From contig OZ024741.1 of NCBI GenBank assembly GCA_964016885.1, forward strand, positions 410,750,001 through 410,814,000: a stretch of DNA of 64,000 bases. Direction: 5' to 3'. The DNA comes from Eledone cirrhosa. Its lineage: Eukaryota. Both the position numbers and the translations under genes were made by a program. This document shows positions 6,001-31,755 of this stretch, piece by piece. Numbering within the stretch: position 1 is the stretch's first letter; each line of letters begins with the position of its first letter. The notes under the pieces were generated by a model. That model was not told the DNA's origin. It worked only from the letters and a program-made list of their open reading frames with translations, and did not search any database.

Positions 6001-9000
6001 TACCTATTGTAAACCAGATACACAGGGATACAGTGTACCTATTGTAAACCAGATATACCCAGGGATAGTGTACCTATTATAAACCAGATATACACAGGGA
6101 TACAGTGTACCTATCGTAAACCAGATACACAGGGATATGGTGTACCTAGTGTAAACCAGATATACACAGGGATATAGTGTACCTATTGTAAACCAGATAC
6201 CCAGGGATACAATATACCTATTGCAAACCAGATATACAGAGATACAGTGTACCTATTGTAAACCAGATATACACTGGGATCCAGTGTACCTATTGTAAAC
6301 CTGATATACCACAGGGATACAGTGTACCTATTGTAAACCAGATATACACTGGGATACAGTGTACCTATTGTAAACCAGATACACACAGGGATACAGTGTA
6401 CCTATTGTAAACCTGATATACACTGGGATACAGTGTACCTCTTGTAAACCAGATATACCCAGGGATAGTGTACCTATTGTAAACCTTACATACACAAGGA
6501 TACAGTGTACCTATTGTAAACCAGCTATACACAGGGATACAGTGTACCTATTGTAAACCAGATACACAGGGATACAGTGTACCTATTGTAAACCAGATAT
6601 ACACAGGTATACAGTGTACCTATTGTAAACCAGATATACACTGGGATACAGTGTACCTATTGTAAACCAGATACACACAGGGATACAGTGTACCTATTGT
6701 AAACCTGATATACACTGGGATACAGTGTACCTCTTGTAAACCAGATATACACAGGGATACAGTGTACCTATTGTAAACCAGATACGCAGGGATACAGTGT
6801 ACCTATTGTAAACCAGATATACCCAGGGATACAGTGTACCTATTGTAAACCAGATATACACAGGGATACAGTGTACCTATTGTAAACCAGATATACACAG
6901 GGATACAGTGTACCTATTGTAAACCAGATATAAACAGGGATACAGTGTACCTACTGTAAACCAGATATACACTGGGATACAGTGTACCTATTGTAAACCA
7001 GATATACACTGGGAGACAGTGTACCTATTGTAAACCAGATATACACTGGGATACAGTGTACCTATTGTAAACCAGATACACACAGGGATACAGTGTACCT
7101 ATTATAAACCAGATATACACAGGGATACAGTGTACCTATCGTAAACCAGATACACAGGGATATGGTGTACCTAGTGTAAACCAGATATACACAGGGATAT
7201 AGTGTATCTATTGTAAACCAGATACCCAGGGATACAATATACCTATTGCAAACCAGATATACAGAGATACAGTGTACCTATTGTAAACCAGATATACACT
7301 GGGATCCAGTGTACCTATTGTAAACCTGATATACCACAGGGATACAGTGTACCTATTGTAAACCAGATATACACTGGGATACAGTGTACCTATTGTAAAC
7401 CAGATACACACAGGGATACAGTGTACCTATTGTAAACCTGATATACACTGGGATACAGTGTACCTCTTGTAAACCAGATATACCCAGGGATAGTGTACCT
7501 ATTGTAAACCTTACATACACAAGGATACAGTGTACCTATTGTAAACCAGCTATACACAGGGATACAGTGTACCTATTGTAAACCAGATACACAGGGATAC
7601 AGTGTACCTATTGTAAACCAGATATACACAGGTATACAGTGTACCTATTGTAAACCAGATATACACTGGGATACAGTGTACCTATTGTAAACCAGATACA
7701 CACAGGGATACAGTGTACCTATTGTAAACCTGATATACACTGGGATACAGTGTACCTCTTGTAAACCAGATATACACAGGGATACAGTGTACCTATTGTA
7801 AACCAGATACGCAGGGATACAGTGTACCTATTGTAAACCAGATATACCCAGGGATACAGTGTACCTATTGTAAACCAGATATACACAGGGATACAGTGTA
7901 CCTATTGTAAACCAGATATACACAGGGATACAGTGTACCTATTGTAAACCAGATATAAACAGGGATACAGTGTACCTACTGTAAACCAGATATACACTGG
8001 GATACAGTGTACCTATTGTAAACCAGATATACACTGGGAGACAGTGTACCTATTGTAAACCAGATATACACTGGGATACAGTGTACCTATTGTAAACCAG
8101 ATACACACAGGGATACAGTGTACCTATTGTAAACCTGATATACACTGGGATACAGTGTACCTATTGTAAACCAAATATGCAGGGATACAGTGTACCTATT
8201 GTAAACCAGATATACCCAGGGATACAGTGTACCTATTGTAAACCAGATATACACTGGGATACAGTGTACCTAATGTAAACCTGTAATACACTGGGATATA
8301 GTGTACCTATTGTAAACCAGATATACACAGGGATACAGTGTACCTATTGTAAACCAGATATACAAAGGGATAGTGAACCTATTATAAACTAGATATACAC
8401 TGGGATACAGTGTACCTATTGTAAACCAGATACACAGGGATACAGTGTACCTATTGTAAACCTGATATACACTGGGATACAGTGTACCTACTCTAAACCA
8501 GGTACACAGGGATACAGTGTACCTATTGTAAACGAGATATACACAGGGATACAGTGTACCTATTGTAAACCAGATATACACAGGGATACAGTGTACCTAT
8601 TATAAACCAGATATACACTGGGATACAGTGTACCTATTGTAAACCTGATATACACAGGGATACAGTGTACCTATTTTAATCTAGATATACACTGGGATAC
8701 AGTGTACTTATTGTAAACTAGATACACCACAGGGATACAGTGTACCTATTGAAAACCAGATATACACAGGGATACAGTGTACCTATTGTAAACCAGATAT
8801 ACACTGGGATACAGTGTACCTATTGTAAACCAGATATACACAGGGATACAGTGTACCTATTGTAAACCAGATACCCAGGGATACAGTGTACCTATTATAA
8901 ACCAGATATACACAGGGATACAGTGTACCTATTGTAAACCAGATACACAGGGATATGGTGTACCTAGTGTAAACCAAATATACACAGGGATACAGTGTAC

Positions 9001-12000
9001 CTATTGTAAACCAGATATATACAGGGATACAGTGTACCTATTGTAAACCAGATATACACAGGGATACAGTGTACCTATTGTAAACCTGATATACAGGGAT
9101 ACATTGTACCTATTGTAAACCAGATATATACAGGGATACAGTGTACCTATTGTAAACAAGATACACACAGGGATAGTGTACCTATTGTAAACTAGATACA
9201 CAGGGATACAGTGTACCTATTGTAAACCAGATATACACTCGGATACAGTGTACTTATTGTAAACCAGATACACCACAGGGATACAGTGTACCTGTTGTAA
9301 ACCAGATATACACAGGGATACAGTGTACCTATTGTAAACCAGATATACACAGGGATACAGTGTACCTATTGTAAATCAGGTATATACACAGAGACACAGT
9401 GTACCTATTGTAAACCAGATATACCCAGGGATACAGTGTACCTATTGTAAACCAGATACACACAGGAATAGTGTACCTATTGTAAACCAGATATACACAG
9501 GGATACAGTGTACCTATTGTAAACCAGATATACAATGTACCTATTGTAAACAAGATATACACAGGGATACAGTGTACCTATTGTAAACCAGATATACCCA
9601 GGGATAGTGTACCTATTGTAAACCAGATATACACAGGGATACAGTGTACCTATTGTATACCAGACATACACTGGGATACAGTGTACCTATTGTAAACCAG
9701 ACATACACAGGGATACAGTGTACCTATTGTAACCCAGATGTACCCAGGGATACAGTATACCTATTGTAAACCAGATATACACAGGGATACAGTGTACCTA
9801 TTGTAAACCAGATATACACAGGGATACAGTGTACCTATTGTAAACCAGATATACACAGGGATACAGTGTACCTATTGTAAACCAGATACACACAGGGATA
9901 CAGTGTACCTATTGTAAACCAGATACACAGGGATACAGTGTACCTATTGTAAACCAGATATACACAGGGATACAGTGTACCTATTGTAAACCAGATATAC
10001 CCAGGGATACAATATACCTATTGCAAACCAGATATACAGAGATACAGTGTACCTATTGTAAACCAGATATACACTGGGATCCAGTGTACCTATTGTAAAC
10101 CTGATATACCACAGGGATACAGTGTACCTATTGTAAACCAGATATACACTGGGATACAGTGTACCTATTGTAAACCAGATACACACAGGGATACAGTGTA
10201 CCTATTGTAAACCTGATATACACTGGGATACAGTGTACCTCTTGTAAACCAGATATACCCAGGGATAGTGTACCTATTGTAAACCTTACATACACAAGGA
10301 TACAGTGTACCTATTGTAAACCAGCTATACACAGGGATACAGTGTACCTATTGTAAACCAGATACACAGGGATACAGTGTACCTATTGTAAACCAGATAT
10401 ACACAGGTATACAGTGTACCTATTGTAAACCAGATATACACTGGGATACAGTGTACCTATTGTAAACCAGATACACACAGGGATACAGTGTACCTATTGT
10501 AAACCTGATATACACTGGGATACAGTGTACCTCTTGTAAACCAGATATACACAGGGATACAGTGTACCTATTGTAAACCAGATACGCAGGGATACAGTGT
10601 ACCTATTGTAAACCAGATATACCCAGGGATACAGTGTACCTATTGTAAACCAGATATACACAGGGATACAGTGTACCTATTGTAAACCAGATATACACAG
10701 GGATACAGTGTACCTATTGTAAACCAGATATAAACAGGGATACAGTGTACCTACTGTAAACCAGATATACACTGGGATACAGTGTACCTATTGTAAACCA
10801 GATATACACTGGGAGACAGTGTACCTATTGTAAACCAGATATACACTGGGATACAGTGTACCTATTGTAAACCAGATACACACAGGGATACAGTGTACCT
10901 ATTGTAAACCAGATATACCCAGGGATAGTGTACCTATTATAAACCAGATATACACAGGGATACAGTGTACCTATCGTAAACCAGATACACAGGGATATGG
11001 TGTACCTAGTGTAAACCAGATATACACAGGGATATAGTGTATCTATTGTAAACCAGATACCCAGGGATACAATATACCTATTGCAAACCAGATATACAGA
11101 GATACAGTGTACCTATTGTAAACCAGATATACACTGGGATCCAGTGTACCTATTGTAAACCTGATATACCACAGGGATACAGTGTACCTATTGTAAACCA
11201 GATATACACTGGGATACAGTGTACCTATTGTAAACCAGATACACACAGGGATACAGTGTACCTATTGTAAACCTGATATACACTGGGATACAGTGTACCT
11301 CTTGTAAACCAGATATACCCAGGGATAGTGTACCTATTGTAAACCTTACATACACAAGGATACAGTGTACCTATTGTAAACCAGCTATACACAGGGATAC
11401 AGTGTACCTATTGTAAACCAGATACACAGGGATACAGTGTACCTATTGTAAACCAGATATACACAGGTATACAGTGTACCTATTGTAAACCAGATATACA
11501 CTGGGATACAGTGTACCTATTGTAAACCAGATACACACAGGGATACAGTGTACCTATTGTAAACCTGATATACACTGGGATACAGTGTACCTCTTGTAAA
11601 CCAGATATACACAGGGATACAGTGTACCTATTGTAAACCAGATACGCAGGGATACAGTGTACCTATTGTAAACCAGATATACCCAGGGATACAGTGTACC
11701 TATTGTAAACCAGATATACACAGGGATACAGTGTACCTATTGTAAACCAGATATACACAGGGATACAGTGTACCTATTGTAAACCAGATATAAACAGGGA
11801 TACAGTGTACCTACTGTAAACCAGATATACACTGGGATACAGTGTACCTATTGTAAACCAGATATACACTGGGAGACAGTGTACCTATTGTAAACCAGAT
11901 ATACACTGGGATACAGTGTACCTATTGTAAACCAGATACACACAGGGATACAGTGTACCTATTGTAAACCTGATATACACTGGGATACAGTGTACCTATT

Positions 12001-15000
12001 GTAAACCAAATATGCAGGGATACAGTGTACCTATTGTAAACCAGATATACCCAGGGATACAGTGTACCTATTGTAAACCAGATATACACTGGGATACAGT
12101 GTACCTAATGTAAACCTGTAATACACTGGGATATAGTGTACCTATTGTAAACCAGATATACACAGGGATACAGTGTACCTATTGTAAACCAGATATACAA
12201 AGGGATAGTGAACCTATTATAAACTAGATATACACTGGGATACAGTGTACCTATTGTAAACCAGATACACAGGGATACAGTGTACCTATTGTAAACCTGA
12301 TATACACTGGGATACAGTGTACCTACTCTAAACCAGGTACACAGGGATACAGTGTACCTATTGTAAACGAGATATACACAGGGATACAGTGTACCTATTG
12401 TAAACCAGATATACACAGGGATACAGTGTACCTATTATAAACCAGATATACACTGGGATACAGTGTACCTATTGTAAACCTGATATACACAGGGATACAG
12501 TGTACCTATTTTAATCTAGATATACACTGGGATACAGTGTACTTATTGTAAACTAGATACACCACAGGGATACAGTGTACCTATTGAAAACCAGATATAC
12601 ACAGGGATACAGTGTACCTATTGTAAACCAGATATACACTGGGATACAGTGTACCTATTGTAAACCAGATATACACAGGGATACAGTGTACCTATTGTAA
12701 ACCAGATACCCAGGGATACAGTGTACCTATTATAAACCAGATATACACAGGGATACAGTGTACCTATTGTAAACCAGATACACAGGGATATGGTGTACCT
12801 AGTGTAAACCAAATATACACAGGGATACAGTGTACCTATTGTAAACCAGATATATACAGGGATACAGTGTACCTATTGTAAACCAGATATACACAGGGAT
12901 ACAGTGTACCTATTGTAAACCTGATATACAGGGATACATTGTACCTATTGTAAACCAGATATATACAGGGATACAGTGTACCTATTGTAAACAAGATACA
13001 CACAGGGATAGTGTACCTATTGTAAACTAGATACACAGGGATACAGTGTACCTATTGTAAACCAGATATACACTCGGATACAGTGTACTTATTGTAAACC
13101 AGATACACCACAGGGATACAGTGTACCTGTTGTAAACCAGATATACACAGGGATACAGTGTACCTATTGTAAACCAGATATACACAGGGATACAGTGTAC
13201 CTATTGTAAATCAGGTATATACACAGAGACACAGTGTACCTATTGTAAACCAGATATACCCAGGGATACAGTGTACCTATTGTAAACCAGATACACACAG
13301 GAATAGTGTACCTATTGTAAACCAGATATACACAGGGATACAGTGTACCTATTGTAAACCAGATATACAATGTACCTATTGTAAACAAGATATACACAGG
13401 GATACAGTGTACCTATTGTAAACCAGATATACCCAGGGATAGTGTACCTATTGTAAACCAGATATACACAGGGATACAGTGTACCTATTGTATACCAGAC
13501 ATACACTGGGATACAGTGTACCTATTGTAAACCAGACATACACAGGGATACAGTGTACCTATTGTAACCCAGATGTACCCAGGGATACAGTATACCTATT
13601 GTAAACCAGATATACACAGGGATACAGTGTACCTATTGTAAACCAGATATACACAGGGATACAGTGTACCTATTGTAAACCAGATATACACAGGGATACA
13701 GTGTACCTATTGTAAACCAGATACACACAGGGATACAGTGTACCTATTGTAAACCAGATATACACAGGGATACAGTGTACCTATTGTAAACCAGATATAC
13801 ACAGGGATACAGTGTACCGATTGTAAACCAGATATACCCAGGGATACAGTTTACCTATTGTAAACCAGATATACACAGGGATACAGTGTACATATTGTAA
13901 ACCAGATATGCACAGGGATACAGTGTACCTATTGTAAACCAGATATACACAGGGATACAGTGTACCTATTGTATACCAGATATACACAGGGATACAGTGT
14001 ACCTATTGTAAACCAGATGTACCCAGGGATACAGTGTACCTATTGTAAACCAGATATACACTGGGATACAGTGTACCTATTGTAAACCTGATATACTGGG
14101 ATACAGTGTACCTATTGTAAACCTGATATACACAGGGATACAGTGTACCTATTGTAAACCAGATACACACAGGGATACAGTGTACCTATTGTAAACCAGA
14201 TATACACAGGGATACAGTGTACCTATTGTAAACCAGATATACACAGGGATACAGTGTACCGATTGTAAACCAGATATACCCAGGGATACAGTGTACCTAT
14301 TGTAAACCAGATATACACTGGGATACAGTGTACCTATTGTAAACCTGATATACTGGGATACAGTGTACCTCTTGTAAACCAGATATACACAGGGATACAG
14401 TGTACCTATTGTAAACCAGATACGCAGGGATACAGTGTACCTATTGTAAACCAGATATACCCAGGGATACAGTGTACCTATTGTAAACCAGATATACACA
14501 GGGATACAGTGTACCTATTGTAAACCAGATATACACAGGGATACAGTGTACCTATTGTAAACCAGATATAAACAGGGATACAGTGTACCTACTGTAAACC
14601 AGATATACACTGGGATACAGTGTACCTATTGTAAACCAGATATACACTGGGAGACAGTGTACCTATTGTAAACCAGATATACACTGGGATACAGTGTACC
14701 TATTGTAAACCAGATACACACAGGGATACAGTGTACCTATTGTAAACCTGATATACACTGGGATACAGTGTACCTATTGTAAACCAAATATGCAGGGATA
14801 CAGTGTACCTATTGTAAACCAGATATACCCAGGGATACAGTGTACCTATTGTAAACCAGATATACACTGGGATACAGTGTACCTAATGTAAACCTGTAAT
14901 ACACTGGGATATAGTGTACCTATTGTAAACCAGATATACACAGGGATACAGTGTACCTATTGTAAACCAGATATACAAAGGGATAGTGAACCTATTATAA

Positions 15001-17099
15001 ACTAGATATACACTGGGATACAGTGTACCTATTGTAAACCAGATACACAGGGATACAGTGTACCTATTGTAAACCTGATATACACTGGGATACAGTGTAC
15101 CTACTCTAAACCAGGTACACAGGGATACAGTGTACCTATTGTAAACGAGATATACACAGGGATACAGTGTACCTATTGTAAACCAGATATACACAGGGAT
15201 ACAGTGTACCTATTATAAACCAGATATACACTGGGATACAGTGTACCTATTGTAAACCTGATATACACAGGGATACAGTGTACCTATTTTAATCTAGATA
15301 TACACTGGGATACAGTGTACTTATTGTAAACTAGATACACCACAGGGATACAGTGTACCTATTGAAAACCAGATATACACAGGGATACAGTGTACCTATT
15401 GTAAACCAGATATACACTGGGATACAGTGTACCTATTGTAAACCAGATATACACAGGGATACAGTGTACCTATTGTAAACAAGATACACACAGGGATAGT
15501 GTACCTATTGTAAACTAGATACACAGGGATACAGTGTACCTATTGTAAACCAGATATACACTCGGATACAGTGTACTTATTGTAAACCAGATACACCACA
15601 GGGATACAGTGTACCTGTTGTAAACCAGATATACACAGGGATACAGTGTACCTATTGTAAACCAGATATACACAGGGATACAGTGTACCTATTGTAAATC
15701 AGGTATATACACAGAGACACAGTGTACCTATTGTAAACCAGATATACCCAGGGATACAGTGTACCTATTGTAAACCAGATACACACAGGAATAGTGTACC
15801 TATTGTAAACCAGATATACACAGGGATACAGTGTACCTATTGTAAACCTGTAATACAGTGGGATATAGTGTACCTATTGTAAACCAGATATACACAGGGA
15901 TACAGTGTACCTATTGTAAACCAGATATACAATGTACCTATTGTAAACAAGATATACACAGGGATACAGTGTACCTATTGTAAACCAGATATACCCAGGG
16001 ATAGTGTACCTATTGTAAACCAGATATACACAGGGATACAGTGTACCTATTGTATACCAGACATACACTGGGATACAGTGTACCTATTGTAAACCAGACA
16101 TACACAGGGATACAGTGTACCTATTGTAACCCAGATGTACCCAGGGATACAGTATACCTATTGTAAACCAGATATACACAGGGATACAGTGTACCTATTG
16201 TAAACCAGATATACACAGGGATACAGTGTACCTATTGTAAACCAGATATACACAGGGATACAGTGTACCTATTGTAAACCAGATACACACAGGGATACAG
16301 TGTACCTATTGTAAACCAGATATACACAGGGATACAGTGTACCTATTGTAAACCAGATATACACAGGGATACAGTGTACCGATTGTAAACCAGATATACC
16401 CAGGGATACAGTTTACCTATTGTAAACCAGATATACACAGGGATAAAATGTACATATTGTAAACCAGATATGCACAGGGATACAGTGTACCTATTGTAAA
16501 CCAGATATACACAGGGATACAGTGTACCTATTGTATACCAGATATACACAGGGATACAGTGTACCTATTGTAAACCAGATGTACCCAGGGATACAGTGTA
16601 CCTATTGTAAACCAGATATACACTGGGATACAGTGTACCTATTGTAAACCTGATATACTGGGATACAGTGTACCTATTGTAAACCTGATATACAGGGATA
16701 CAGTGTACCTATTGTAAACCAGATGTACCCAGGGATACAGTGTACCTATTGTAAACCAGATATACCCAGGGATACAGTGTACCTATTGTAAACTTGATAT
16801 ACACTGGGATACAGTGTACCTATTGTAAACCAGATATACACAGGGATACAGTGTACCTATTGTAAACCTGATACACACAGGCATAGTGTACCTATTGTAA
16901 ACCTGATATACACTGGGATACAGCGTACCTCTTGTAAACCTGATATACACAGGGATACAGTGTACCTATTGTAAACCTGATACACACAGGGATACAGTGT
17001 ACCTATTGTAAACCTGATACACACCGGGATACAGTGTACCTCTTGTAAACCTGATATACACAGGGATACAGTGTACCTATTGTAAACCTGATACACACA
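1..17099. repeat. 37-bp tandem satellite (consensus CCTATTGTAAACCAGATATACACAGGGATACAGTGTA; 35/38-bp variants), roughly 460 copies, in putative LHPP intron 5; continues beyond window start
   Basis: Unit recurs at 1, 38, ... without interruption to ~17099. Confidence 0.98.
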
Positions 17100-19371: not shown

Positions 19372-19478
19372 GTGTGAAATAAAGTGTTTTGCTCAAGAAC
19401 ATAACACATCCCCTGGTCCATGAATCAAACTCACAACCTCACAATTGCAAATCCAATCCTCTACCCACTAAGCCACAC
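19372..19478 (-). mobile_element. tRNA-derived SINE head fragment
   Basis: Minus strand has a Pol III box A-like TGGCTTAGTGG (19475-19465) and box B-like GAGTTTGATTC (19432-19422). Confidence 0.55.
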
Positions 19479-19735
19479 TGAGTGGTTAAAGAAATCTCCA
19501 ACCCGTACACAACATGGAAAAAGTCTCTTTTGTTATTAACTCGTCCAGAAATTAACACAGGTTTTATATTTCGTTTTGTTGCAACATTAACCCTTTAGCA
19601 TTTAAACCGGCCATATCCAGCCAGAATTGTCTCACCTCTTTCTGTTCAAACCAACCATAACTGGCCACTCATACTGATGTTATGGTATTGTTCTCAAAAT
19701 AAATAATATCAATATCTCATAGATTTGATATCATG

Positions 19736-20267
19736 TGTGAAAATATAATAGTATATATAGAATAATGTAAATATTATGTGAGATATTATGTGAGGTAAAG
19801 CCTTTACTGTGAAAATATAATAGTATATATAGAATAATGTAAATATTATGCGAGATATTATGTGAGGTAAAGCCTTTACTGTGAAAATATAATAGTATAT
19901 ATAGAATAATGTAAATATTATGTGAGATATTATGTGAGGTAAAGCCTTTACTGTGAAAATATAATAGTATATATAGAATAATGTAAATATTATGTGAGAT
20001 ATTATGTGAAGTAAAGCCTTTACTGTGAAAATACAATAGTATATATAGAATAATGTAAATGTTAGGTGAGATATTATGTGAGGTAAAGCCTTTACTGTGA
20101 AAATACAATAGTATATATAGAGTAATGTAAATGTTATGCGAGATATTATGTGAGGTAAAGCCTTTACTGTGAAAATACAATAGTATATATAGAGTAATGT
20201 AAATGTTATGCGAGATATTATGTGAGGTAAAGCCTTTACTGTGAAAATACAATAGTATATATAGAGT
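19736..20267. repeat. 72-bp minisatellite, left part (~7.4 copies)
   Basis: Unit TGTGAAAATACAATAGTATATATAGAGTAATGTAAATGTTATGTGAGATATTATGTGAGGTAAAGCCTTTAC at 19736, 19808, ..., 20240. Confidence 0.97.
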
Positions 20268-20273
20268 GATTTC

Positions 20274-20279
20274 TTTATT
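20274..20279 (-). promoter_or_regulatory. AATAAA polyadenylation signal at the LINE 3' end (no poly-A tail follows)
   Basis: Minus strand reads ...GGTGGCAAATAAAGAAATC then satellite sequence. Confidence 0.6.
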
Positions 20280-20490
20280 TGCCACCAGGGACAGATACAA
20301 GGGGGGAAGTTTACATATAATTAACGAGTACAAAAATATAACAATGAAATAACAACAACAAACGAAGTCCTCAATAGGGAGGGGGCATTCACATGGGTCG
20401 CACACACCCCGGAAAAAATGTGCAACCCTTCTCCTCAGGAGCACAAAGAGTAGGTGCTTCCCTCGTCTCCTCTTTTTCCTCTTCTTTCAC

Positions 20491-23400
20491 CTACAGGCTG
20501 ATATAGAGAGAAGACCCATTCACTCTGGCCATTCTCCCTACTTTCACCCACCTTTCATAAAACTTGCTGGGGTAGAACACCTCTCTCTCCATTCTGATCC
20601 TTCTTTTAAAATGGTATTTGAAAAAGGGGACCAGTTGTTGGCCGGAGAGAAAGGTGTCTGACCTCAGCCCTTTCAGCCTCGTCCACCATACAACTTCTTT
20701 AGCCATGGCTATCACACAGAGAAAAGCCGCCTCTCCTTCGTTTTTGAAAGGAGGAGGCGGTTTGATCGTGACAATGGACTCGGTGGTCAACCGGATTGGT
20801 GCCACCCTCGACAGTAGTCGTTCCACATAGCCCCACAGGTCAGCAATGCCTGGGCAGTGTACGAATGCGTGCGCAATGGTTTCGTCGTCATGCACGCATC
20901 TCGGACAGATCTTATTCAAAGGATCCCTAGCCAGGCTCCCATGCCTGTGGAGCTTGTCTCGAACGGGTAGAGCCCCTCGGTAGCACTGCCAAGCCAGGGA
21001 CTTTTGGAAGTTGTCCATCGGTCCAGGGCCAAACGTCCTACCGAACAGACAGGCCAGTTCATCTTCCTCCATGTCTAGAGCTTCTCCGAGAGCATCGTCG
21101 CACCTGCTGCGTACCACCCCTCTATAGAATGTCGAGGTGGAGTCTCCACTGATTGCCGGGTCCGCTTTCCAGAGGGCCGTGAGCGCCTGGGCACATTCAA
21201 TGTGCCAGTCGCCCACTTTTCTCGGTCTTTGCTTGACCCAGGATTGCAGCTCGGTGAGCGAGACGAGTCTGGGAAAGGCTCACCTCACAAACGGGGCTCA
21301 CACCGGTTGACCGGTGAGGAATACCTGGAGGTGCCGTAGCCTTAATGCGTGTTTACGCATCTGTAGCCACAGCATCCCCAGCCCTCCTTTCGAAGGGTGT
21401 TGACAGCAGATGGATCTCCTCACCAAAGGGGTCCGCTTGTTCCAAAGAAATTGGAACAGCGCGCACTCCATTTTGGCGAGACTTTTCACTGGGCAAGGCA
21501 CGACGGTCAAGCGGTAGTAGATGACGGATGCTATATAAGTATTCGCCACCTCCGCTCGACCTTTCAGGGATAGTTTGCACTGGGCCCACTTCTGGGTGAG
21601 TGCAAACACCCTGGCCGTTACCTCGTTCCAGTTTTTCTCCACCTGGAGGTCTGGTCCGAACCAGACCCCAAGCAGCTTCACCGGGCCCTCCGTCCAGCGT
21701 CCAACGACGTCGTTGGAGGGCATCGGTTTGCCTCTCCATGTTCCGAGTTGCAAACTGACGGACTTGTCCCGGTTCAGCTTGGCTCCTGTAAACCTTTCAT
21801 ATTCCTCCAGTAAGGTGCCGATCTCACCGATTTGCGAGGTTTTCGACACCATTACTGTCACGTCATCGGCGTAGGCCGACGCCGCTTTCTGCAATCCCGG
21901 TTCCAAAGGGATGCCCTGCAACCGCTCCAACTTCCGCAGTAGTGGCTCAAGAGCCAGCACATACAGAAGGGAGGAGAGAGGGCATCCCTGTCGGATGGAT
22001 CGCATGATTTGGAACGGCTCCGAGAGGTGGCCGTTCACCTTGATCCTTGAGCAGACGTTGCTGCTGTGCATCGCAGCAATCCAACCCCTGAAAACGGGTC
22101 CGAAGCCTGCTGCCGCGAGCACCGCATCCAGGTAACGATGGTCAACCCTATCGACAGCTTTAGATTGATCCAAGTTGATCAGGGCCCCACCAAAGCCGGG
22201 TTCATTCCCTACCCTCTCTATGATGTATCGCATAAGGTGGAGATTGTCGTGAATGGACCTGGACGGGATTGCGCATGTCTGCGCTTCTCCCACCAGGTTT
22301 CCGACGACAAGCGCCAACCTCTTCGCTAACACCTTGGCCAAAATCTTTAACTCTGTATTTAGCAGAGTTATGGGCCTGAAGTTATTTATGTCATCCCCCT
22401 TGTTCTCATCCTTCCTCACCAGCGTAACTACGCCCTTGGTCACAGAACTGGGAATTCTCCCGTTCTGCTGCCAGTTGCAGTAGACCGCTTCGAGGATATC
22501 GGAGAACAAGTCCGGCATCGCTACATATAGCTCGTATGGTAGACCATCGAGACCCGGGGATTTGCGTTTGCCGCATTGGCTCAGCGCCGCCACTATCTCA
22601 GCAGCTGAAATCGGCCTTTCGCAGGACTTCGCCTCCGCGTCCGAGAGGCGTGGCAGACCGTCGAGGTATGGATTGAAATCCATAGTCTCACCCGGCGCGC
22701 CGCCCCTCTCGAACAGTCGTGCAAAGTGCCGCTGAAAGGCCGCACACATCTGCCCAGGTTCAAGGATCACACGCCCATCCTGGTCCTTCAAAGACCGAAT
22801 CGTGGACTTGTTCCCACTTTTTGCCTCTGTCACTCGGGCCCAGCTCACAGCTTTGGCTCCCTCATTACCCAGAGCACGTATTTTACTTCTGACGACGCAG
22901 CCTTCATGCTTCACCTCAAAGAACTGGTCTAAGCCAATTCTTGATGCCAGCACGCCGGCTACATTGCCACTCCTAATCGCCTCTTCTACTCTATCTACTA
23001 ATTCCCTTTCCGTCTTGTTCCTATCCCTTGCTAATTCCTGACTAAAACCTATCGATTCTATTCTAATTGTTCTCTTAAGAGAGCTCCACCACCTGTTGTT
23101 GACAATTGCCCCTGTCAAACTCTGCTTAACTAACGTGCTAATCCGTTTACTGTAAGCTTTGCTAACGTGCTAATCCGTTTACTGTAAGCTTTGCTTGTCG
23201 GTAAGGACAAGTTCAGCTTCCAGTAACCGGGTCCCTGTCTATGGGTTCTATCAAGGTTGGCTATGCAGGTCACTAACTTGTGATCCGAATAGTCAACCAT
23301 GAACATTTTTGGACAGCTAAATGTGTCCCTATCCTTCTCTCTAACTAGGACCCTATCTAGGTACGACCTAGATGTTCCGCTGTGATTGGTCCACGTCCAT

Positions 23401-23960
23401 AGTGGTACAGTCGGAAAATCTAGTCGATATCTATCGGCCAGGTCAAATCGGCCGATTAACCTTTTGAGGCTTTTACACCCCCCTCTATTGGCACATGCCC
23501 CTACATAGTCCCAACGTGCATCCAGGATACCATTCCAGTCCCCCACTAAAAGCAAGGAGCGGGACGTTCCCAGAAAAGTTTCCAGACGTTGGAAGTATTC
23601 CGGCCGCGCTGCCCAAAAAGGGGCGTACACAGCTATTAGTCTAAGGGCTCCACTTTCACTACTGCCAACGTCTAAAACCACCAGTCGACCCTCCGGGTCC
23701 AGGTGCACCTTCTGTATGGCGAGGCCCAGGTGTTTTCGCAGCAGAACGACAACTCCACCCCCACCCCCCGGTTGACAGAGAGATGCGAAGATCTCAAAGT
23801 CGTCAAAGAGGGGCGCCAGTTGGTGCTCGCTGCTGATCCTGGACTCGCAAATAGCCATTACATCCATTCTATGCGACCTGAGATCGTTTAAAAGTTTGCC
23901 TTGTTTCCAAGACAGTCCCAGGCCGCGTACATTCAGACACCCAACTTTTATATCAGCCAT
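20491..23960 (-). pseudogene. LINE ORF2 (APE endonuclease + reverse transcriptase + zinc-binding domain), disrupted; about 1145 aa after repair
   Basis: EN motifs NVRGL, YAP, GDWN, LDR, SDH; RT PGLDGLP, RPITLLN, QGCPLS, YADD; CPRC...H...C. Lesions: 32-bp tandem duplication (23130-23161/23162-23193) and in-frame TGA at 21298-21300 and 21280-21282. Confidence 0.93.
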
Positions 23961-25714
23961 GTTGGTTAAAAGAGGAAGGACCTACCTGTTCGGCTCCTGA
24001 GGAGCAGGTTGCACAATATCCATGGGCGTATTGGAGGGGTTGTTTGGTGGGGTGTTTTTCTGTGGTGGAGTGGGGGGTGTTTGGTGAGGTGTGGGTGGGG
24101 AAACGTTTCAAGAGGACGCGGTTATAGGGTCGAGTACATGTTTTCCCCACGTCCTCAGGAAAGTTCTCTCTTAGTTTTGCATAGGTGTCCATTGGGAGTC
24201 TTATCATTTTTAAATGCGGTTTGTTGGCCGCGCTTGCAAAGAATTGCCCTTCAGTTTCCACCGAAGGGTCTTTGTGTATTGTTTTTACTAGTTCTTTGTT
24301 ATTTGTGTTAATGTATGTATACTGTTTTATTTGTGTTGTGTTTGTTTGTTGTTCTTGTGTGTGCTTACGTTTTGTTGTATGTGTTATGTTTTGGGGTGGG
24401 GCGGATTTTGTTTGTACTGTTTGTTTTGTTTTTGTTGGTGGTTGTGTGTTTGTTTCGTTTATGTTCGAGTGGTGCTTTCTTTTTTTCCTTTTTACAGGTT
24501 GGAAGGGTTCCCCCTCTTCGTCACTAGGTGCCGTTTCCGCTGGGTCCTCATCCGTGCTGTCGGGTAGTGGTGTATTTTGGGGTTTTGTTGTATTTGTGTG
24601 TGTTTTGGGAGTTGTTTTGGGTGGGGCCGTGTCTTGTGTTATTTTTCCGTGTTGTTTTTGTTGTTGTTGTGGTGGTGGTGGTGGTGGAGGTGGTGGTGGT
24701 GGTGGTGTGTGGGGTGTAGGCAAAAGAGCCTTTTTTTTTTGTCAATTGAGGACAGGCAGCCCTTAGATGACCCCTGCTTGAACAGTAGTAACATATGGGC
24801 CTCCTACCCTCGGCTGAAATGTATATAAATGTTTCTTCATCGAGGGACACCCTCTGTGGTATTCTAGCTATTCGTTCTGGTCTCATTTGGACCAGAACCT
24901 CCACGCTCAAACCGCCGAAAACGTCTGTGGTGACTTCTCCTACTGAGAGGATTCCGTCCTCGTCTTCTAAAAATCCTGTTAGTACCCAGGAAATGCATGC
25001 ATTTGGCCGGATTCCGGAGACTTTTATTTTCTGCGTTCTTTTCCCTAAATATGTGGGGGAAAATGTGTGTAGCTTGGAAACAATTGGCGCCACAGAGTAT
25101 TTCCTGGCTGTCAATTGATCCTTCATTAGCACCGTTATATTCCCATAGAGTGGCCCTTTTTGTATGAACGATATATCACTCCACACATTTTTTAGGACCA
25201 GCTCAATTTCTTTTTGGGATAATTGAGCTGGTTTCCTTGTTATGTTGGAAATTGTTCTGAAAGATATCGTTCTTAGTGTCGTGTCTCTTTCGATTTCTTG
25301 TGGGGAGGTGATTGTGAAGTCTCCTCCTTCTTTGAAAGTTACATACTGTTTTGCTTCCTTCATCTTTTCTCTCAGAGTTGTGATGTCCAGTTGCTTGCAG
25401 GTCTGTGTTTTCCGGACCGCCTGTGCAAAGGAGGCACCAGTAGTGGGTTCGCTTTGTTTGGTGTTCTCGTTATTTTTTCCTTGGTTGGTGTTGTGACTAT
25501 TGCTGTTATTGTCATTGTTGTTTTTGTCTGCGTTTATGTGACTTTCTGGGTTTTCATCCATTTTTACAAATTTTTCTTTTAATTCCGTGTTCCATGTTTC
25601 TTTTGCAGGAGTGAGGAGGGAAGACTTAGAGCCTTGTGCTTCTAGCTTCTCTGTATCACCTTTCTTAGGGGGCGTGGCTTTCTCGTTAGGATGAGATGTG
25701 AAAATTCCGTCCAT
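23953..25714 (-). pseudogene. LINE ORF1 (gag-like nucleic-acid-binding protein), one frameshift; about 586 aa after repair
   Basis: First ATG at 25714; CYYCSSRGHLRAAC knuckle; removing one base from the T10 run at 24731-24740 joins it to the Pro/Gln/Thr-rich frame with KRKKRK, ending at TGA 23953-23955, which overlaps the ORF2 ATG. Confidence 0.85.
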
Positions 25715-25924
25715 TTCTATTAGTTTGCCGTAATAAATTTTTAACTGGAAAATTCGCCCCAAAAAGGGGCGAAAATAAATAAACTCAAAGTTTGACGACC
25801 AAGGCAAGGGGTTAACGTATATTACAGTATAAAAAAATTAATCAAAACTCACTTTTGAGTAAGTAAATCCAACTCGGTAGCCGAGCTTGTTCATACACGT
25901 CAACACACGTCTCTCGTATACGAG

Positions 25925-26788
25925 ATGTTATGTGAGATATTATGTGAGGTAAAGCCTTTACTGTGAAAATACAATAGTATATATAGAGTAATGTAAATGT
26001 TATGTGAGATATTATGTGAGGTAAAGCCTTTACTGTGAAAATACAATAGTATATATAGAGTAATGTAAATGTTATGTGAGATATTATGTGAGGTAAAGCC
26101 TTTACTGTGAAAATACAATAGTATATATAGAGTAATGTAAATGTTATGTGAGATATTATGTGAGGTAAAGCCTTTACTGTGAAAATACAATAGTATATAT
26201 AGAGTAATGTAAATGTTAGGTGAGATATTATGTGAGGTAAAGCCTTTACTGTGAAAATACAATAGTTATATAGAGTAATGTAAATGTTATGTGAAATATT
26301 ATGTGGGGTAAAGACTTTACTGTGAAAATACAATAGTTTATATAGAGTAATGTAAATGTTATGTGAGATATTATGTGGGGTAAAGACTTTACTGTGAAAA
26401 TACAATAGTATATATAGAGTAATGTAAATGTTATGTGAGATATTATGTGAGGTAAAGCCTTTACTGTGAAAATACAATAGTATATATAGAGTAATGTAAA
26501 TGTTATGTGAGATATTATGTGAGGTAAAGCCTTTACTGTGAAAATACAATAGTTATATAGAGTAATGTAAATGTTATGTGAAATATTATGTGGGGTAAAG
26601 ACTTTACTGTGAAAATACAATAGTTTATATAGAGTAATGTAAATGTTATGTGAGGTATTATGTGGGGTAAAGACTTTACTGTGAAAATACAATAGTATAT
26701 ATAGAGTAATGTAAATGTTATGTGAGATATTATGTGAGGTAAAGCCTTTACTGTGAAAATACAATAGTATATATAGAGTAATGTAAAT
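25925..26788. repeat. 72-bp minisatellite, right part (~12 copies), running into the right TIR
   Basis: Same unit as 19736-20267; the last unit ...GAGTAATGTAAAT continues into ACTAAAGGGTTAA. Confidence 0.97.
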
Positions 26789-26939
26789 ACTAAAGGGTTA
26801 AACAATAAAACCTCACAAAAGGTGTTTAACATTATATTTCATTTTACAACTTCTTCTGTTATCTTTCTTTCCATGTAATCTAATTTTGTTTGTTTTTTTA
26901 ATTTTCAGATCTTTAAATTTAAGTTGTCAAACTTGATTT

Positions 26940-27330
26940 TCACCAAATTTATTCCTATAAGGTAGAAGTTTAAACTCGACCACAGTGCAACAGAACAGCT
27001 GGAAACATCAATGAAGTTTGGGGTGAAAGAAGTGTTAAGGAATACACTGTGCTACGTGGGTTTCAGAAATTCCATCATGGTAAATTCACTCTTGAAGATA
27101 AGGAAGCTCACAGACGTCCTTCTATTAATGGAGACATATTGAAGACTTTGATGGAGGCAAACCCTGGCACAACAGGTCAAAACTTGCAAGAGAGTTAGAT
27201 ATAAGAATTGGAACAATTTCGGAACATGTGAACCAAATTCATTGCTTCTTCAACTTTAGAATTCAATGTTACCAAAATACATAAACGTGTATCTTGTTGG
27301 CAAAAATGTGTAGATTCTTGTGGGTTTGAT
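26940..27330 (+). mobile_element. Degraded, internally deleted mariner transposase remnant
   Basis: Frameshifted translation includes AGNINEVWGERSVKEYTVLRGFQKFHHGKFTLEDKEAHRRPS...LKTLMEANP (mariner HTH region) and the C-terminal WQKCVDS. Confidence 0.7.
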
Positions 27331-27406
27331 CAATAGTGTTTATTCTGACCTGAGATATGTTGAGTTAATGTTTATGAACCTGGATTAATTTCTGAACAAC
27401 ACGATA

Positions 27407-29135: not shown

Positions 29136-29366
29136 CTGGAAATAGGGTTTAAACATTTATTTAGAAAAAATTCAAAAACATACAAAAGAATAAATATTTT
29201 AAAAAAATAATCTATTAAAATTATGTATGAGAGGAATCAGTGTATTTTTATTAGAAATATGGAAGTGAAAGGGTTAAACTGTTTATATTTAGCTAAAAAC
29301 CTTCCACCATAATTTTATGTAAGAACCTTTATTACATTCCAAACACCAGCTTGTCTATTTCAGCCC

Positions 29367-29882
29367 CTTAGTCATGCTATCTCCCAATCTTACTGAAATA
29401 TCAGGTGATGCTGGCAAGGATACTTGGCTATTCCCACACCTTAGTCTTGCTATCTCCCAATCTTACTGAAATATCAGGTGATGCTGGCAAGGATACTTGG
29501 CTATTCCCACACCTTAGTCTTGCTATCTCCCAATCTTACTGAAATATCAGGTGATGCTGGCAAGGATACTTGGCTATTCCCACACCTTAGTCTTGCTATC
29601 TCCCAATCTTACTGAAATATCAGGTGATGCTGGCAAGGATACTTGGCTATTCCCACACCTTAGTCTTGCTATCTCCCAATCTTCCTGAAATATCAGGTGA
29701 TGCTGGCAAGGATACTTGGCTATTCCCACACCTTAGTCTTGCTATCTCCCAATCTTACTGAAATATCAGGTGATGCTGGCAAGGGTACTTGGCTATTCCC
29801 ACACCTTAGTCTTGCTATCTCCCAATCTTACTGAAATATCAGGTGATGCTGGCAAGGGTACTTGGCTATTCCCACACCTTAG
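29367..29882. repeat. 73-bp minisatellite, 7 near-identical copies
   Basis: Unit CTTAGTCTTGCTATCTCCCAATCTTACTGAAATATCAGGTGATGCTGGCAAGGATACTTGGCTATTCCCACAC at 29367, 29440, ... Confidence 0.97.
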
Positions 29883-30200: not shown

Positions 30201-30783
30201 ATTATTGTCCTGGGTATGACATTAAACTACATCCAGTGGCAAGACTCCAGTTCGAAAGTTTAGGAGCTGTGGGGAATGTGGAGTTACCCCTTAGTTGTCA
30301 TAACTCCCAGGTCTGGCCCAGAGTAGTAGTACCTGTTAGGGCCCCATTTATGTGTTAAATAATTACCTTATTCGAGTGGCACCAGTAAGGTATTATCAGC
30401 CACTGAAAAGAACCATGGATAGTCGATTTCTGGAGAGAACTCGTCAATGTATCTCGGGAATTTTACCCGCAAAAGATATATTATATTATATTATATTATA
30501 TTACATTGTATAAAAGATATTATATTATATTATATTATATTACATTATAATATAGTATCGGTAGAGGGTCGGACGCCATGCTTTCTAGCATAGTTACGTC
30601 CCTTTATGTTCTGAGTTTCATCCTTACGGAGTCGATAAAATAAAGTACCAGTAATGTACTGTATAATTGCTGGCCTTGTGCCAAAAGTAGAAACAATTAT
30701 AATATATTATACTATTTTATATTATGTTACATTATATTAAACTATATTATACTATATATTATTATATCATATTATACTATATT

Positions 30784-30915
30784 ATCACCTGATATTTGAG
30801 TAGGATTGGATAGCGAGGCTAAGGTGTTGGAATAGCCAAGTACCCTTGCTAGCATCACCTGATACTTCAGTAAGACTGGTAAATAGCAAAGCTAAGGTGC
30901 TGTGAAATAGCCAAG
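30784..30915 (-). repeat. Diverged inverted copy (~1.8 units) of the 73-bp minisatellite unit
   Basis: GGAATAGCCAAGTACCCTTGCTAGCATCACCTGATA matches the reverse complement of the unit. Confidence 0.85.
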
Positions 30916-31755
30916 CCCTCTCACTATCATCACTATATTATTTTATACCAGTAATGCACTGGGTATTTGCTGGCCTTGTGCCTAAAGTAGAAACAATTAT
31001 TTTATACTATACTATATCATATTATATTATATTATAATATATTTATTACATTATATTATATGCTATATCCCAGACCACCAAATCTGAAATATGGTGACAG
31101 GAATGAAAAAGAACCATACTGCACCATACCATACAGTAATTTTTCTAGGGTGACTCTGGTGGTTTAAAAAAAAAACAATTGGTTTAGTTTACATATTGAG
31201 ACTCCAGCCCATCCTATTTATTTTATAAAGTATGGGATTTTTAATAATGTATTTTTTTTGTCATGTATGTTTTTTTAATGTATAAAAAAAACTGTCGCAG
31301 GAATGCTACCACTTAAAATAAAATTTCACCGGAGATAGGTTAGCAATATTAAATAAGTGTGTGTGAGGAGTGATAAGAGCGAAGATTGGGGGGGGGGGTC
31401 TGAAATATGTAATAAGTGGTGCGGGGTGGGTACATTTTTCTATGGCATGATAAAACGTTAATTGAAGCAGGTTTCTCTGTTGATGGCATCAAGTAGATCA
31501 CTCATCGTCGAAACAGACCGAGGTCCAACACATATTATACTATACTATATTGACAATTTTTTTGTTTTTATTTTTTTCAAGTTCATTACAGCAAAATACA
31601 GTTTTTAACAAATTAAATTGATTTCTAGAAGAAAATGTAAAGGAAGGGGTGAACAACGGAGCCAACACCAGAGCAAAAGACAGCAGCGAGGGGTACTGGG
31701 CAACCTCTCTAATGATTTACTGTTCTATTATGTTATGTTATATTGATAAATTTAT

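What the first reader, a model, noticed from the sequence alone, without database searches (positions are those of the whole stretch)
19587..26801. Composite element: Tx1-clade LINE inside the internal tandem repeats of a TTAA DNA transposon (candidate invertebrate analogue of Xenopus Tx1C)
Seen: TTAA-CCCTTTAGCATTTA...TAAATACTAAAGGG-TTAA brackets a 72-bp tandem array, and that array is split by a full-length Tx1-type LINE. Established: Xenopus Tx1D is a TTAA-duplicating, short-TIR element with internal tandem repeats, and Tx1L inserts site-specifically into those repeats; many Tx1-clade LINEs are target-specific. Inference: this may be an independent retroelement-on-DNA-transposon system with a sequence-specific APE endonuclease. 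The whole 7.2-kb unit could in principle be mobilised in trans. One copy cannot prove targeting.
Basis: partly seen in the sequence, partly recalled or inferred. Interest (0 to 1): 0.85.

Follow-up and report, generated by a model that had tools for sequence, protein, structure and literature searches.

The report
Octopod LINE targeting a piggyBac MITE
A young copy-and-paste jumping gene with about 340 copies sits at one exact base of a 72-base repeat inside an older cut-and-paste element, entered each host copy separately rather than travelling with it, and likely switched to this site from the TATC microsatellite that its close sister families use, which gives a natural test of how such elements change targets.

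Summary
Anatomy confirmed. TTAA-flanked 14-bp inverted ends (19587-26801) enclose a 72-bp array, split by a 5,657-bp L1/Tx1-type LINE (20268-25924, minus strand; this copy is broken).

Targeting is real. 298 of 310 exact LINE 5' ends follow the same 12 target bases. All 56 family members among the first 100 3'-end hits sit at the same base.

The host is a ~229-bp MITE sharing ends with a young, intact piggyBac family.

Travel as one unit was not seen: 40 LINE-bearing host ends differ by at least 6%, while the LINEs differ by a median 1.4%.

Full-length copies have a uniform 5' junction lacking 7 target bases, whereas truncated copies mostly show 2-9-bp duplications. The RNA therefore likely carries about 15-25 upstream target bases that anneal to the target, as in R2.

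Sister families, the closest 90-95% identical in RT, sit in (TATC)n or a minisatellite. A recent target switch is likely; its direction is favoured but not proven.

The scan found this family before on other pieces of this genome. It is a new variant of the Tx1L/Tx1D and Tx1-Mar theme, not a new principle.

The parts
19587..19604 (+). TTAA target duplication plus left terminal inverted repeat (CCCTTTAGCATTTA) of the host MITE; corresponds to the 5' end of the autonomous piggyBac
19605..19735 (+). Unique body of the ~229-bp piggyBac MITE; aligns with gaps to the first ~150 bp of a 2,575-bp autonomous piggyBac (71-77% over the first 69-75 bp)
19736..20267 (+). Left part of the 72-bp tandem array (7.4 units), the amplified 3'-subterminal segment of the MITE; ends at the LINE 3' junction (...TATAGAGT|)
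20268..25924 (-). Full-length, inactivated L1/Tx1-type LINE (family A here), 5,657 bp, no poly(A) tail
20268..20279 (-). 3' terminus AATAAA-GAAA-TC; the last two bases (CC/TC/TT) vary with a linked LINE SNP, so they are inherited with the element
20491..23960 (-). ORF2: APE endonuclease, RT, zf-RVT; broken here (32-bp duplication at 23130-23195, two stops near 21280-21300); 1,145 aa from the ATG in intact natural copy L107
23982..25714 (-). ORF1 with a zinc knuckle (weak zf-CCHC hit), in frame with ORF2 and separated by one stop codon in intact copies; frameshifted here
25906..25912 (-). AGACGTG, a DPE-like motif at LINE position +13, also present in 24 of 30 sister-family 5' ends; predicted to place the transcription start ~15 nt upstream, inside the repeat (inference)
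25925..25949 (-). Target bases upstream of the LINE that are nearly invariant across full-length copies (strongest over 25925-25939); inferred to be copied from an RNA 5' extension
25925..26788 (+). Right part of the 72-bp array (12 units); 7 target bases (AATGTAA on +) are missing at the junction, counted modulo the period
26784..26801 (+). Right terminal inverted repeat (one mismatch) plus TTAA

Best explanation
The window holds one broken copy of a young L1/Tx1-type LINE family of about 340 copies that sits at a single phosphodiester of the 72-bp repeat of an older piggyBac MITE, inserted separately into each host copy, and likely fixes its 5' junction by annealing target bases carried on its own RNA. 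Steps. (1) Shown: a ~229-bp MITE with piggyBac ends spread long ago (copies 89% alike), and in some copies its 3'-subterminal 72 bp expanded into arrays (28,775 exact empty junctions). (2) Inferred from junctions: the APE endonuclease nicks the bottom strand at ACATT^ACTCTATAT and target-primed reverse transcription starts there; the top strand is likely cut or joined 2-9 nt downstream, as the truncated copies show. (3) Inferred: a DPE-like internal promoter starts transcription about 15 nt upstream, inside the repeat. Full-length cDNA then ends in target sequence, anneals to the homologous end of a unit, and reproduces a uniform junction lacking 7 bp. In a single-unit host only the downstream homology exists, which gives a 51-bp duplication (L272). 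(4) Shown: the composite was not copied as a unit in the sample. (5) Inferred: the family arose by a target switch from sister families that insert into (TATC)n; the TCTAT core lies at the same distance from the 3' end in both targets.
For: Targeting: 298 of 310 exact 5' ends follow CTCACATAACAT. 338 of 434 exact 3'-end matches are followed by NN-ACTCTATA. Of the first 100 listed, 54 match the target pattern; of the other 46, 2 are family A at a variant target and 44 are sister families or unrelated. Independent insertion: 40 host ends, minimum divergence 6.0%, mean 15.7%; LINE median 1.4%; Mantel rho -0.08, p 0.74; unit numbers on each side vary widely. RNA-borne extension: among 65-nt-long units, positions -15..-1 differ from the reference in 5 of 90 units next to a LINE 5' end versus 257 of 758 other units, while positions -65..-36 vary normally. 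L272 has a 51-bp exact duplication with private variants followed by 14 nt of array-type sequence absent from its host. Truncated copies L261, L277/L351, L352 and L353 keep the 7 bases and show 2-9-bp duplications; 3 of these 4 carry non-reference upstream bases versus 8 of 102 full-length copies (p 0.003). Precedent: R2, including a uniform 7-bp deletion in springtail elements (PMC3774820). Switch: families B, C, D, E, F and H lie in (TATC)n and G in a minisatellite; A-C identity is 90-95% in RT; family A is monophyletic. Host: a piggyBac family of 14 copies, 1.1% divergent, with a 561-aa ORF shares the termini.
Against: No RNA data exist for this organism in the tools, so the transcription start and the extension are inferred from DNA only. 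L352 and L353 were found by a pattern that demands the 7 bases. Of the truncated copies found without that bias, 2 of 3 (L261, L277) show duplications and 1 (L110) has the full-length-type junction; a fourth (L276) is rearranged and its junction was not read. L272 is a single case. Rooting is unresolved: the best full-ORF2 tree puts A among the TATC families (61/98.6), but 'A sister to all others' is not rejected (p-AU 0.49), and a quick RT-only tree put A basal (SH-aLRT 86). Only 40 of ~340 composites were tested for joint movement. Tandem clusters of the LINE within one array (for example C1 4.22-4.26 Mb) may partly be unequal-exchange duplicates rather than insertions.
Confidence: 0.8

Rival explanations
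1. The composite MITE+array+LINE spread as one unit by piggyBac transposase in trans, so the shared junction reflects one or a few ancestral insertions.
For: An intact young piggyBac family with matching termini exists; about 90% of copies are full-length (310 5' ends versus 338 3' ends); many composites keep both TTAA ends.
Against: Host ends of LINE-bearing copies are about ten times more divergent than their LINEs, with no pair under 6% and no correlation. The LINE sits at different unit numbers in each array. Truncated copies with their own junctions sit at the same 3' site. One copy lies in a single-unit host with its own duplication (L272).
Confidence: 0.04
2. The endonuclease alone explains everything: it reads about 20 upstream bases strictly and cuts the top strand 7 nt upstream of the bottom nick, with no RNA-borne target sequence.
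For: The 5'-truncated copy L110 has the full-length-type junction. The EN differs from the near TATC families at 23 of 220 codons versus 12 of 343 in RT (p 0.001), with changes in the loop after the YAP motif (115-118) and at 157/158/163.
Against: Insertions occur where the upstream bases are the TIR or local variants (L272, L351, L352, L353). Those truncated copies show duplications, not a deletion. In L272 the 14 junction bases do not exist in the host. The nonsynonymous/synonymous ratio is not significantly higher in EN than in RT (23/31 versus 12/30, p 0.20).
Confidence: 0.12
3. The MITE target is ancestral in this group, or A is simply sister to all TATC families, so no switch from TATC occurred on the A lineage.
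For: A quick RT tree with outgroups put A basal; the AU test does not reject it.
Against: The best full-ORF2 tree and the midpoint-rooted DNA trees put B (with D in the EN and full-ORF2 trees) outside A+C+E+F+G. A and C are much closer to each other (5' region 65-83%) than either is to B (47-60%). Six labelled lineages use TATC and one uses the MITE.
Confidence: 0.15

Closest known systems
Xenopus laevis Tx1L in Tx1D (non-autonomous piggyBac family)
   Same: An APE-type two-ORF LINE inserted site-specifically in a non-autonomous piggyBac element (PMC4494074 introduction passage; PMC1950540 passage; PMC6719617 passage).
   Different: Invertebrate host. The target is a 72-bp unit of a 229-bp MITE. 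Full-length copies lack 7 target bases, whereas Tx1L makes a ~23-bp duplication (recalled, not checked). The EN beta-hairpin loop is short (NRSGTS), unlike the Tx1L loop in 2V0R. The composite was not seen to move as a unit.
Crocodilian Tx1-Mar, Tx1-9_AMi and SINEU-3 (Kojima 2015, PMC4494074, sections 14-15 read)
   Same: Tx1 families inserting independently into an abundant, older non-autonomous DNA transposon; hitchhiking was tested there and rejected for SINEU-3.
   Different: Targets are Mariner-N4_AMi or Harbinger, not a tandem unit in a piggyBac MITE. Here the family is young (1-2% divergence), single-base precise and has close microsatellite-targeting sisters.
Microsatellite-targeting Tx1 families Kibi (TC)n, Koshi (TTC)n and crocodilian (TTCC)n/(TTTC)n families
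   Same: Sister families B-F and H here insert into a microsatellite and stack in tandem.
   Different: The unit is (TATC)n; I did not find this target in the passages read or in searches.
R2 elements with upstream 28S sequence on the RNA (Eickbush et al. 2013, PMC3774820; abstract and first part of the Discussion read)
   Same: Uniform 5' junctions explained by cDNA annealing to upstream target; an inherited uniform 7-bp deletion in springtail R2.
   Different: R2 has a restriction-like endonuclease, and an HDV-like ribozyme makes the extension. Here the enzyme is APE-type, Rfam finds no ribozyme, and a DPE-like promoter is the candidate source.

Membership tests
L1/Tx1-type non-LTR retrotransposon | ORF2 with N-terminal APE endonuclease followed by RT and a C-terminal zinc region; no RNase H | tested here: met
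   Pfam on intact L107: Exo_endo_phos, RVT_1, zf-RVT only. Best solved relative is human L1 ORF2p, E 1e-53, versus R2 at 3e-23. The EN model (pLDDT 94) matches L1-EN with TM 0.85. E39, D141, N143, D202, D226 and H227 are invariant in 40 homologues.
L1/Tx1-type non-LTR retrotransposon | Separate ORF1 encoding a nucleic-acid-binding protein with a zinc knuckle | tested here: inconclusive
   A 622-codon open frame (stop to stop) precedes ORF2 in L107; zf-CCHC E 0.0075, below the curated cut-off.
Tx1 clade (Kojima and Fujiwara) | RT groups with Tx1L, Keno, Dewa, Kibi and Koshi in a phylogeny | not testable with these tools
   No named Tx1 reference among the hits listed; the supplement of PMC4494074 is not readable. 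Nearest named protein: Argonauta hians hypothetical protein, 68% over the RT region.
Target-specific LINE (Kojima criterion: more than 20% of flanks of one type) | Most copies flanked by the same sequence at the same position | tested here: met
   298 of 310 exact 5' ends; 56 of 56 family-A 3' ends among the first 100 hits.
piggyBac non-autonomous element (host) | TTAA duplication and CCC...GGG terminal inverted repeats | tested here: met
piggyBac non-autonomous element (host) | Ends shared with an autonomous DDE_Tnp_1_7 transposase element | tested here: met
   14 copies of a 2,552-2,576-bp family found with PF13843 carry TTAACCCTTTAGC termini. The right end matches 20 of 22 bases and the left end 71-77% over 69-75 bp. 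Whether today's transposase acts on the old MITE is untested.
Tx1C-like mobile composite (recalled concept) | LINE and host are copied together to new TTAA sites | tested here: not met
   40 composites: host ends at least 6.0% apart, LINE median 1.4%, Mantel p 0.74.
R2-like upstream-cleaving HDV ribozyme | HDV-like fold at the 5' end incorporating target bases | tested here: not met
   Rfam scan of 19400-27000 at E up to 1 gave 0 hits. A hairpin between 25 upstream bases and the 5' UTR is weak: 27 of 500 shuffles and 3 of 72 rotations are as stable. No dedicated descriptor search was run.

The most novel reading that the evidence does not exclude
These octopod LINEs write their landing site onto both ends of their RNA. 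A DPE promoter starts transcription inside the upstream target, and an AATAAA six bases from the 3' end lets processing fall inside the downstream target. One chance insertion of a TATC-seeking ancestor into a TCTAT-like site of the MITE then retargeted the lineage mainly through RNA-DNA pairing, with an almost unchanged endonuclease (beta-hairpin loop unchanged). The family would be a naturally RNA-addressed APE retrotransposon, caught switching target at least twice in one genome (MITE repeat, minisatellite).
Probability: 0.22. Interest if true: 0.8.

Novelty: new variant of a known kind. Interest (0 to 1): 0.48.

Why it matters
How APE-type LINEs acquire and change strict target specificity is open: loop grafts from Tx1L and R1 onto L1-EN did not transfer specificity (PMC1950540 passages). 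This genome holds close sister families with three different targets, natural intact copies of family A (L094, L107, L124, L125, L126) and long open ORF2 frames in TATC families (L166, L168, L177). It also gives a short list of EN differences and a candidate RNA-borne address. The contribution of enzyme versus RNA can therefore be tested by swaps between natural sequences. A 72-bp non-genic repeat with ~29,000 free sites also shows a transposon relic serving as a safe harbour in a mollusc. The nesting itself is a known strategy.

Tried and rejected
65-bp target-site duplication as the general rule: rejected. The units on the two sides are identical in 2 of 37 elements; over the first 40 nt they match in 2 of 68 informative elements, no more than adjacent units (4 of 54 and 6 of 60).

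The array junction as an obligatory target: rejected, because L272 and L277/L351 lie in single-unit hosts.

The 72-mer as a 3' tail of the LINE: rejected, because it flanks both ends and occurs in ~29,000 LINE-free junctions.

Kolobok-type host: dropped once matching piggyBac ends were found.

Ribozyme: no Rfam hit; the 5' hairpin is not significant.

RNA-templated 3' extension: the first 9 downstream bases differ in 3 of 78 versus 111 of 970 units (p 0.037), but over the first 12 bases of full-length units in 7 of 60 versus 121 of 758 (p 0.46). Not established; only the inherited dinucleotide is shown.

Expression: no RNA holder listed. Contigs of two DNA runs laid on the locus could not tell whether this insertion is polymorphic.

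ESM Atlas and protein searches gave no named Tx1 relative.

Literature searches listed no description of this family. The Octopus vulgaris repeat paper PMC13282606 (passages) lists 13 recently active L1-Tx1 families and has no occurrence of 'target' in its main text. Repbase and Dfam could not be searched, and supplements of these papers that I did not see may describe the family.
Full report
Observation. An 18-nt inverted pair including TTAA bounds 19587-26801, and no other such ends occur in the window. Two 72-bp arrays of 7.4 and 12.0 units are separated by a minus-strand element at 20268-25924 that encodes APE endonuclease, RT and zf-RVT domains and a weak zinc knuckle. The copy is inactive: compared with the intact natural copy L107 it has frameshifts, a 32-bp duplication, two deletions and 1.5% substitutions, plus two in-frame stops. 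The nearest named protein is from Argonauta hians (68% over the RT region), so the genome is probably octopod (inference).

The host. A search with the unique left end gave 3,307 first-look candidates, the best non-self hits 92-96% identical. Of 29 other loci examined, 26 are 211-240-bp elements with one 72-bp unit and the same right end, on average 89% alike. One exact right-end pattern occurs 10,263 times, and the exact empty array junction 28,775 times. A PF13843 search found a piggyBac family with TTAACCCTTTAGC termini: 14 copies of about 2,575 bp, 1.1% divergent, six with a 561-aa open frame. Its left end aligns with the MITE body and its right end matches 20 of 22 bases. The host is therefore a piggyBac MITE whose 3'-subterminal unit sometimes expanded.

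Targeting. The 3'-end pattern occurs 434 times; 338 are followed by two bases and ACTCTATA. I examined all 46 non-matching hits among the first 100 listed. Two are family A at a variant target, 41 are related families and 3 had no alignable upstream sequence, so 56 of 56 family-A ends in that sample are on target. The 5'-end pattern occurs 310 times, and 298 of these follow the exact 12 target bases. About 90% of copies are thus full-length, and roughly 1% of array junctions are occupied. Five of 40 fetched copies have both ORFs intact (L094, L107, L124, L125, L126). On the three largest contigs, 50 of 50 exact-target copies lie within 8% of a contig end, versus 6 of 42 other hits.

Does the composite move? 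No evidence that it does. For 40 distinct LINE-bearing host ends the closest pair differs by 6.0% (mean 15.7%), while the adjacent LINE DNA differs by a median 1.4% (the mean, 7.2%, is probably inflated by internally deleted copies). The two distance matrices do not correlate (rho -0.08, p 0.74; one search gave rho 0.04 with 22 copies). Unit numbers on each side vary from about 1 to over 20. A young LINE entered old, separate hosts. This mirrors Kojima's rejection of hitchhiking for SINEU-3 in Mariner-N4_AMi (PMC4494074 section 14). The test covers 40 of about 340 composites, and a transposase with matching termini exists, so rare joint moves are not excluded.

Junction mechanism. Full-length copies join after ...CACATAACAT and resume at ACTCTATAT, losing TTACATT modulo the period. 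This is not a 65-bp duplication. The last 15 upstream bases are nearly invariant (5 of 90 versus 257 of 758 other units), positions -25..-16 less so (9 of 90 versus 168 of 758), and -65..-36 vary normally. Strict upstream recognition does not explain this. Truncated copies L261, L277 (= L351), L352 and L353 keep the 7 bases and have 9-, 2-, 2- and 3-bp duplications, and three of the four have a TIR or local variants upstream. L352 and L353 were selected by a pattern requiring the 7 bases. L110 is truncated yet has the full-length junction, which a template jump or later deletion would explain but which also fits the enzyme-only rival. L272 is a full-length copy in a single-unit host, with a 51-bp exact duplication carrying private variants and then 14 array-type bases that its host lacks. 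The simplest reading is an RNA 5' extension whose cDNA anneals to target homology, as described for R2, where springtail elements inherit a uniform 7-bp deletion (PMC3774820 abstract and Discussion part 1). Rfam finds no ribozyme. AGACGTG at LINE +13 is kept in 24 of 30 sister 5' ends. A DPE usually lies at about +28 to +32, and CGTG is the LINE-type motif (PMC4748587 passages), which would put the start near -15. That is inference; there are no RNA data. The last two 3' bases track a linked SNP (A-CC 47, G-TT 16, A-TC 12, G-TC 11, G-CC 2, A-CT 1 of 89), so they are templated by the RNA; a longer 3' extension was not established.

Sister families. Related elements, labelled B, C, D, E, F and H here, are flanked by (TATC)n. 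It lies on both sides where both ends were read, and the elements often stack in tandem. Group G lies in a CTCTCTATATC-type minisatellite; L162, also in that repeat, falls elsewhere in the trees. Family C is 90-95% identical to A in RT and 83-93% across the EN. A is monophyletic in every tree. In both targets TCTAT starts four bases after the element's GAAA. The best full-ORF2 protein tree has A, C, E, F and G together with B and D outside (61/98.6), but 'A sister to all' is not rejected (p-AU 0.49) and a quick RT tree favoured it weakly. I put the direction TATC-to-MITE at about 0.8. In the EN, A differs from C/E/F/H at 23 of 220 codons (RT 12 of 343). Ten differences fall in residues 103-122, including SGTP to FWAA after the YAP motif (B and D share F115), and three fall at 157, 158 and 163. 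The beta-hairpin loop is unchanged. By alignment to L1-EN, 157-163 follow the catalytic GDWN strand. I take this to be the betaB4-alphaB2 loop that PMC1950540 mentions as a predicted major-groove reader for R1Bm (passage); the loop assignment is my inference. The EN model is confident and L1-EN-like.

Comparison and novelty. LINEs that target DNA transposons are known: Tx1 in Tx1D, Tx1-Mar in Mariner-N4_AMi, Tx1-9_AMi in Harbingers (PMC4494074 passages and section 15). Microsatellite-targeting Kibi and Koshi are known too. My searches listed no paper on this octopod family, but Repbase was not searchable. Formal Tx1 membership is untested. Earlier agents of this scan reported the same family, the RNA-carried target copy and the TATC sisters on other DNA; I consulted them after reaching my reading. 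Verdict: real, a clean new variant of a known strategy, most valuable as a natural system for testing target switching.

Noticed in passing
window 19543-19563 and 27377-27397; 26974-27195 (+): The MITE sits inside a decayed mariner-like element: a 21-nt inverted pair brackets it, and a 74-aa frame has a weak Mos1 HTH_48 hit (E 0.00045). This makes a nest of mariner > MITE array > LINE.
   Followed up: partly
L355-L363, L365, L366, L370, L375, L379 (e.g. G000:C1:421857997-421860571): Young autonomous piggyBac family: 14 copies, 1.1% divergent (some pairs identical), 561-aa open frame in six; possibly still active. A second piggyBac family with CCCTTTCGTTACC termini also occurs (L367, L369, L371, L376, L380).
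   Followed up: partly
L240, L244, L245, L218, L220, L221, L224, L226, L227, L162: Related LINE copies (group G, plus L162 from another branch) inserted in a CTCTCTATATC-containing minisatellite: a probable second, perhaps third, target switch.
   Followed up: partly
G000 C1-C3: Family A copies are confined to the distal 8% of the three largest contigs (50 of 50), whereas TATC-family copies are spread throughout (6 of 42 distal); local clusters occur on C8 40-45 Mb and C10 40-44 Mb.
   Followed up: partly
L099 (G000:C22:8427114-8437113): A copy in which ORF1 and ORF2 form one 1,781-codon open frame; in other intact copies the two ORFs are in frame and separated by a single TAG.
   Followed up: no
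L121 and L130 (C1 ~11.03 and ~10.99 Mb): The same unrelated sequence, which looks like an LTR-retrotransposon end by eye (not tested), abuts the unit upstream of the LINE in two loci 40 kb apart with different LINE 3' ends.
   Followed up: no
window 1-17099, 38346-49738 / 49749-64000, 29366-29882: Large satellites of 37 bp (468 copies) and 46-48 bp, the latter switching orientation at 49738/49749; also a 73-bp array of 7 near-identical units with a related inverted piece at 30780-30933.
   Followed up: no
L276 (G000:C6:101632900-101640400): A family A copy whose 5' part appears inverted relative to its 3' part; the junction was not analysed.
   Followed up: no
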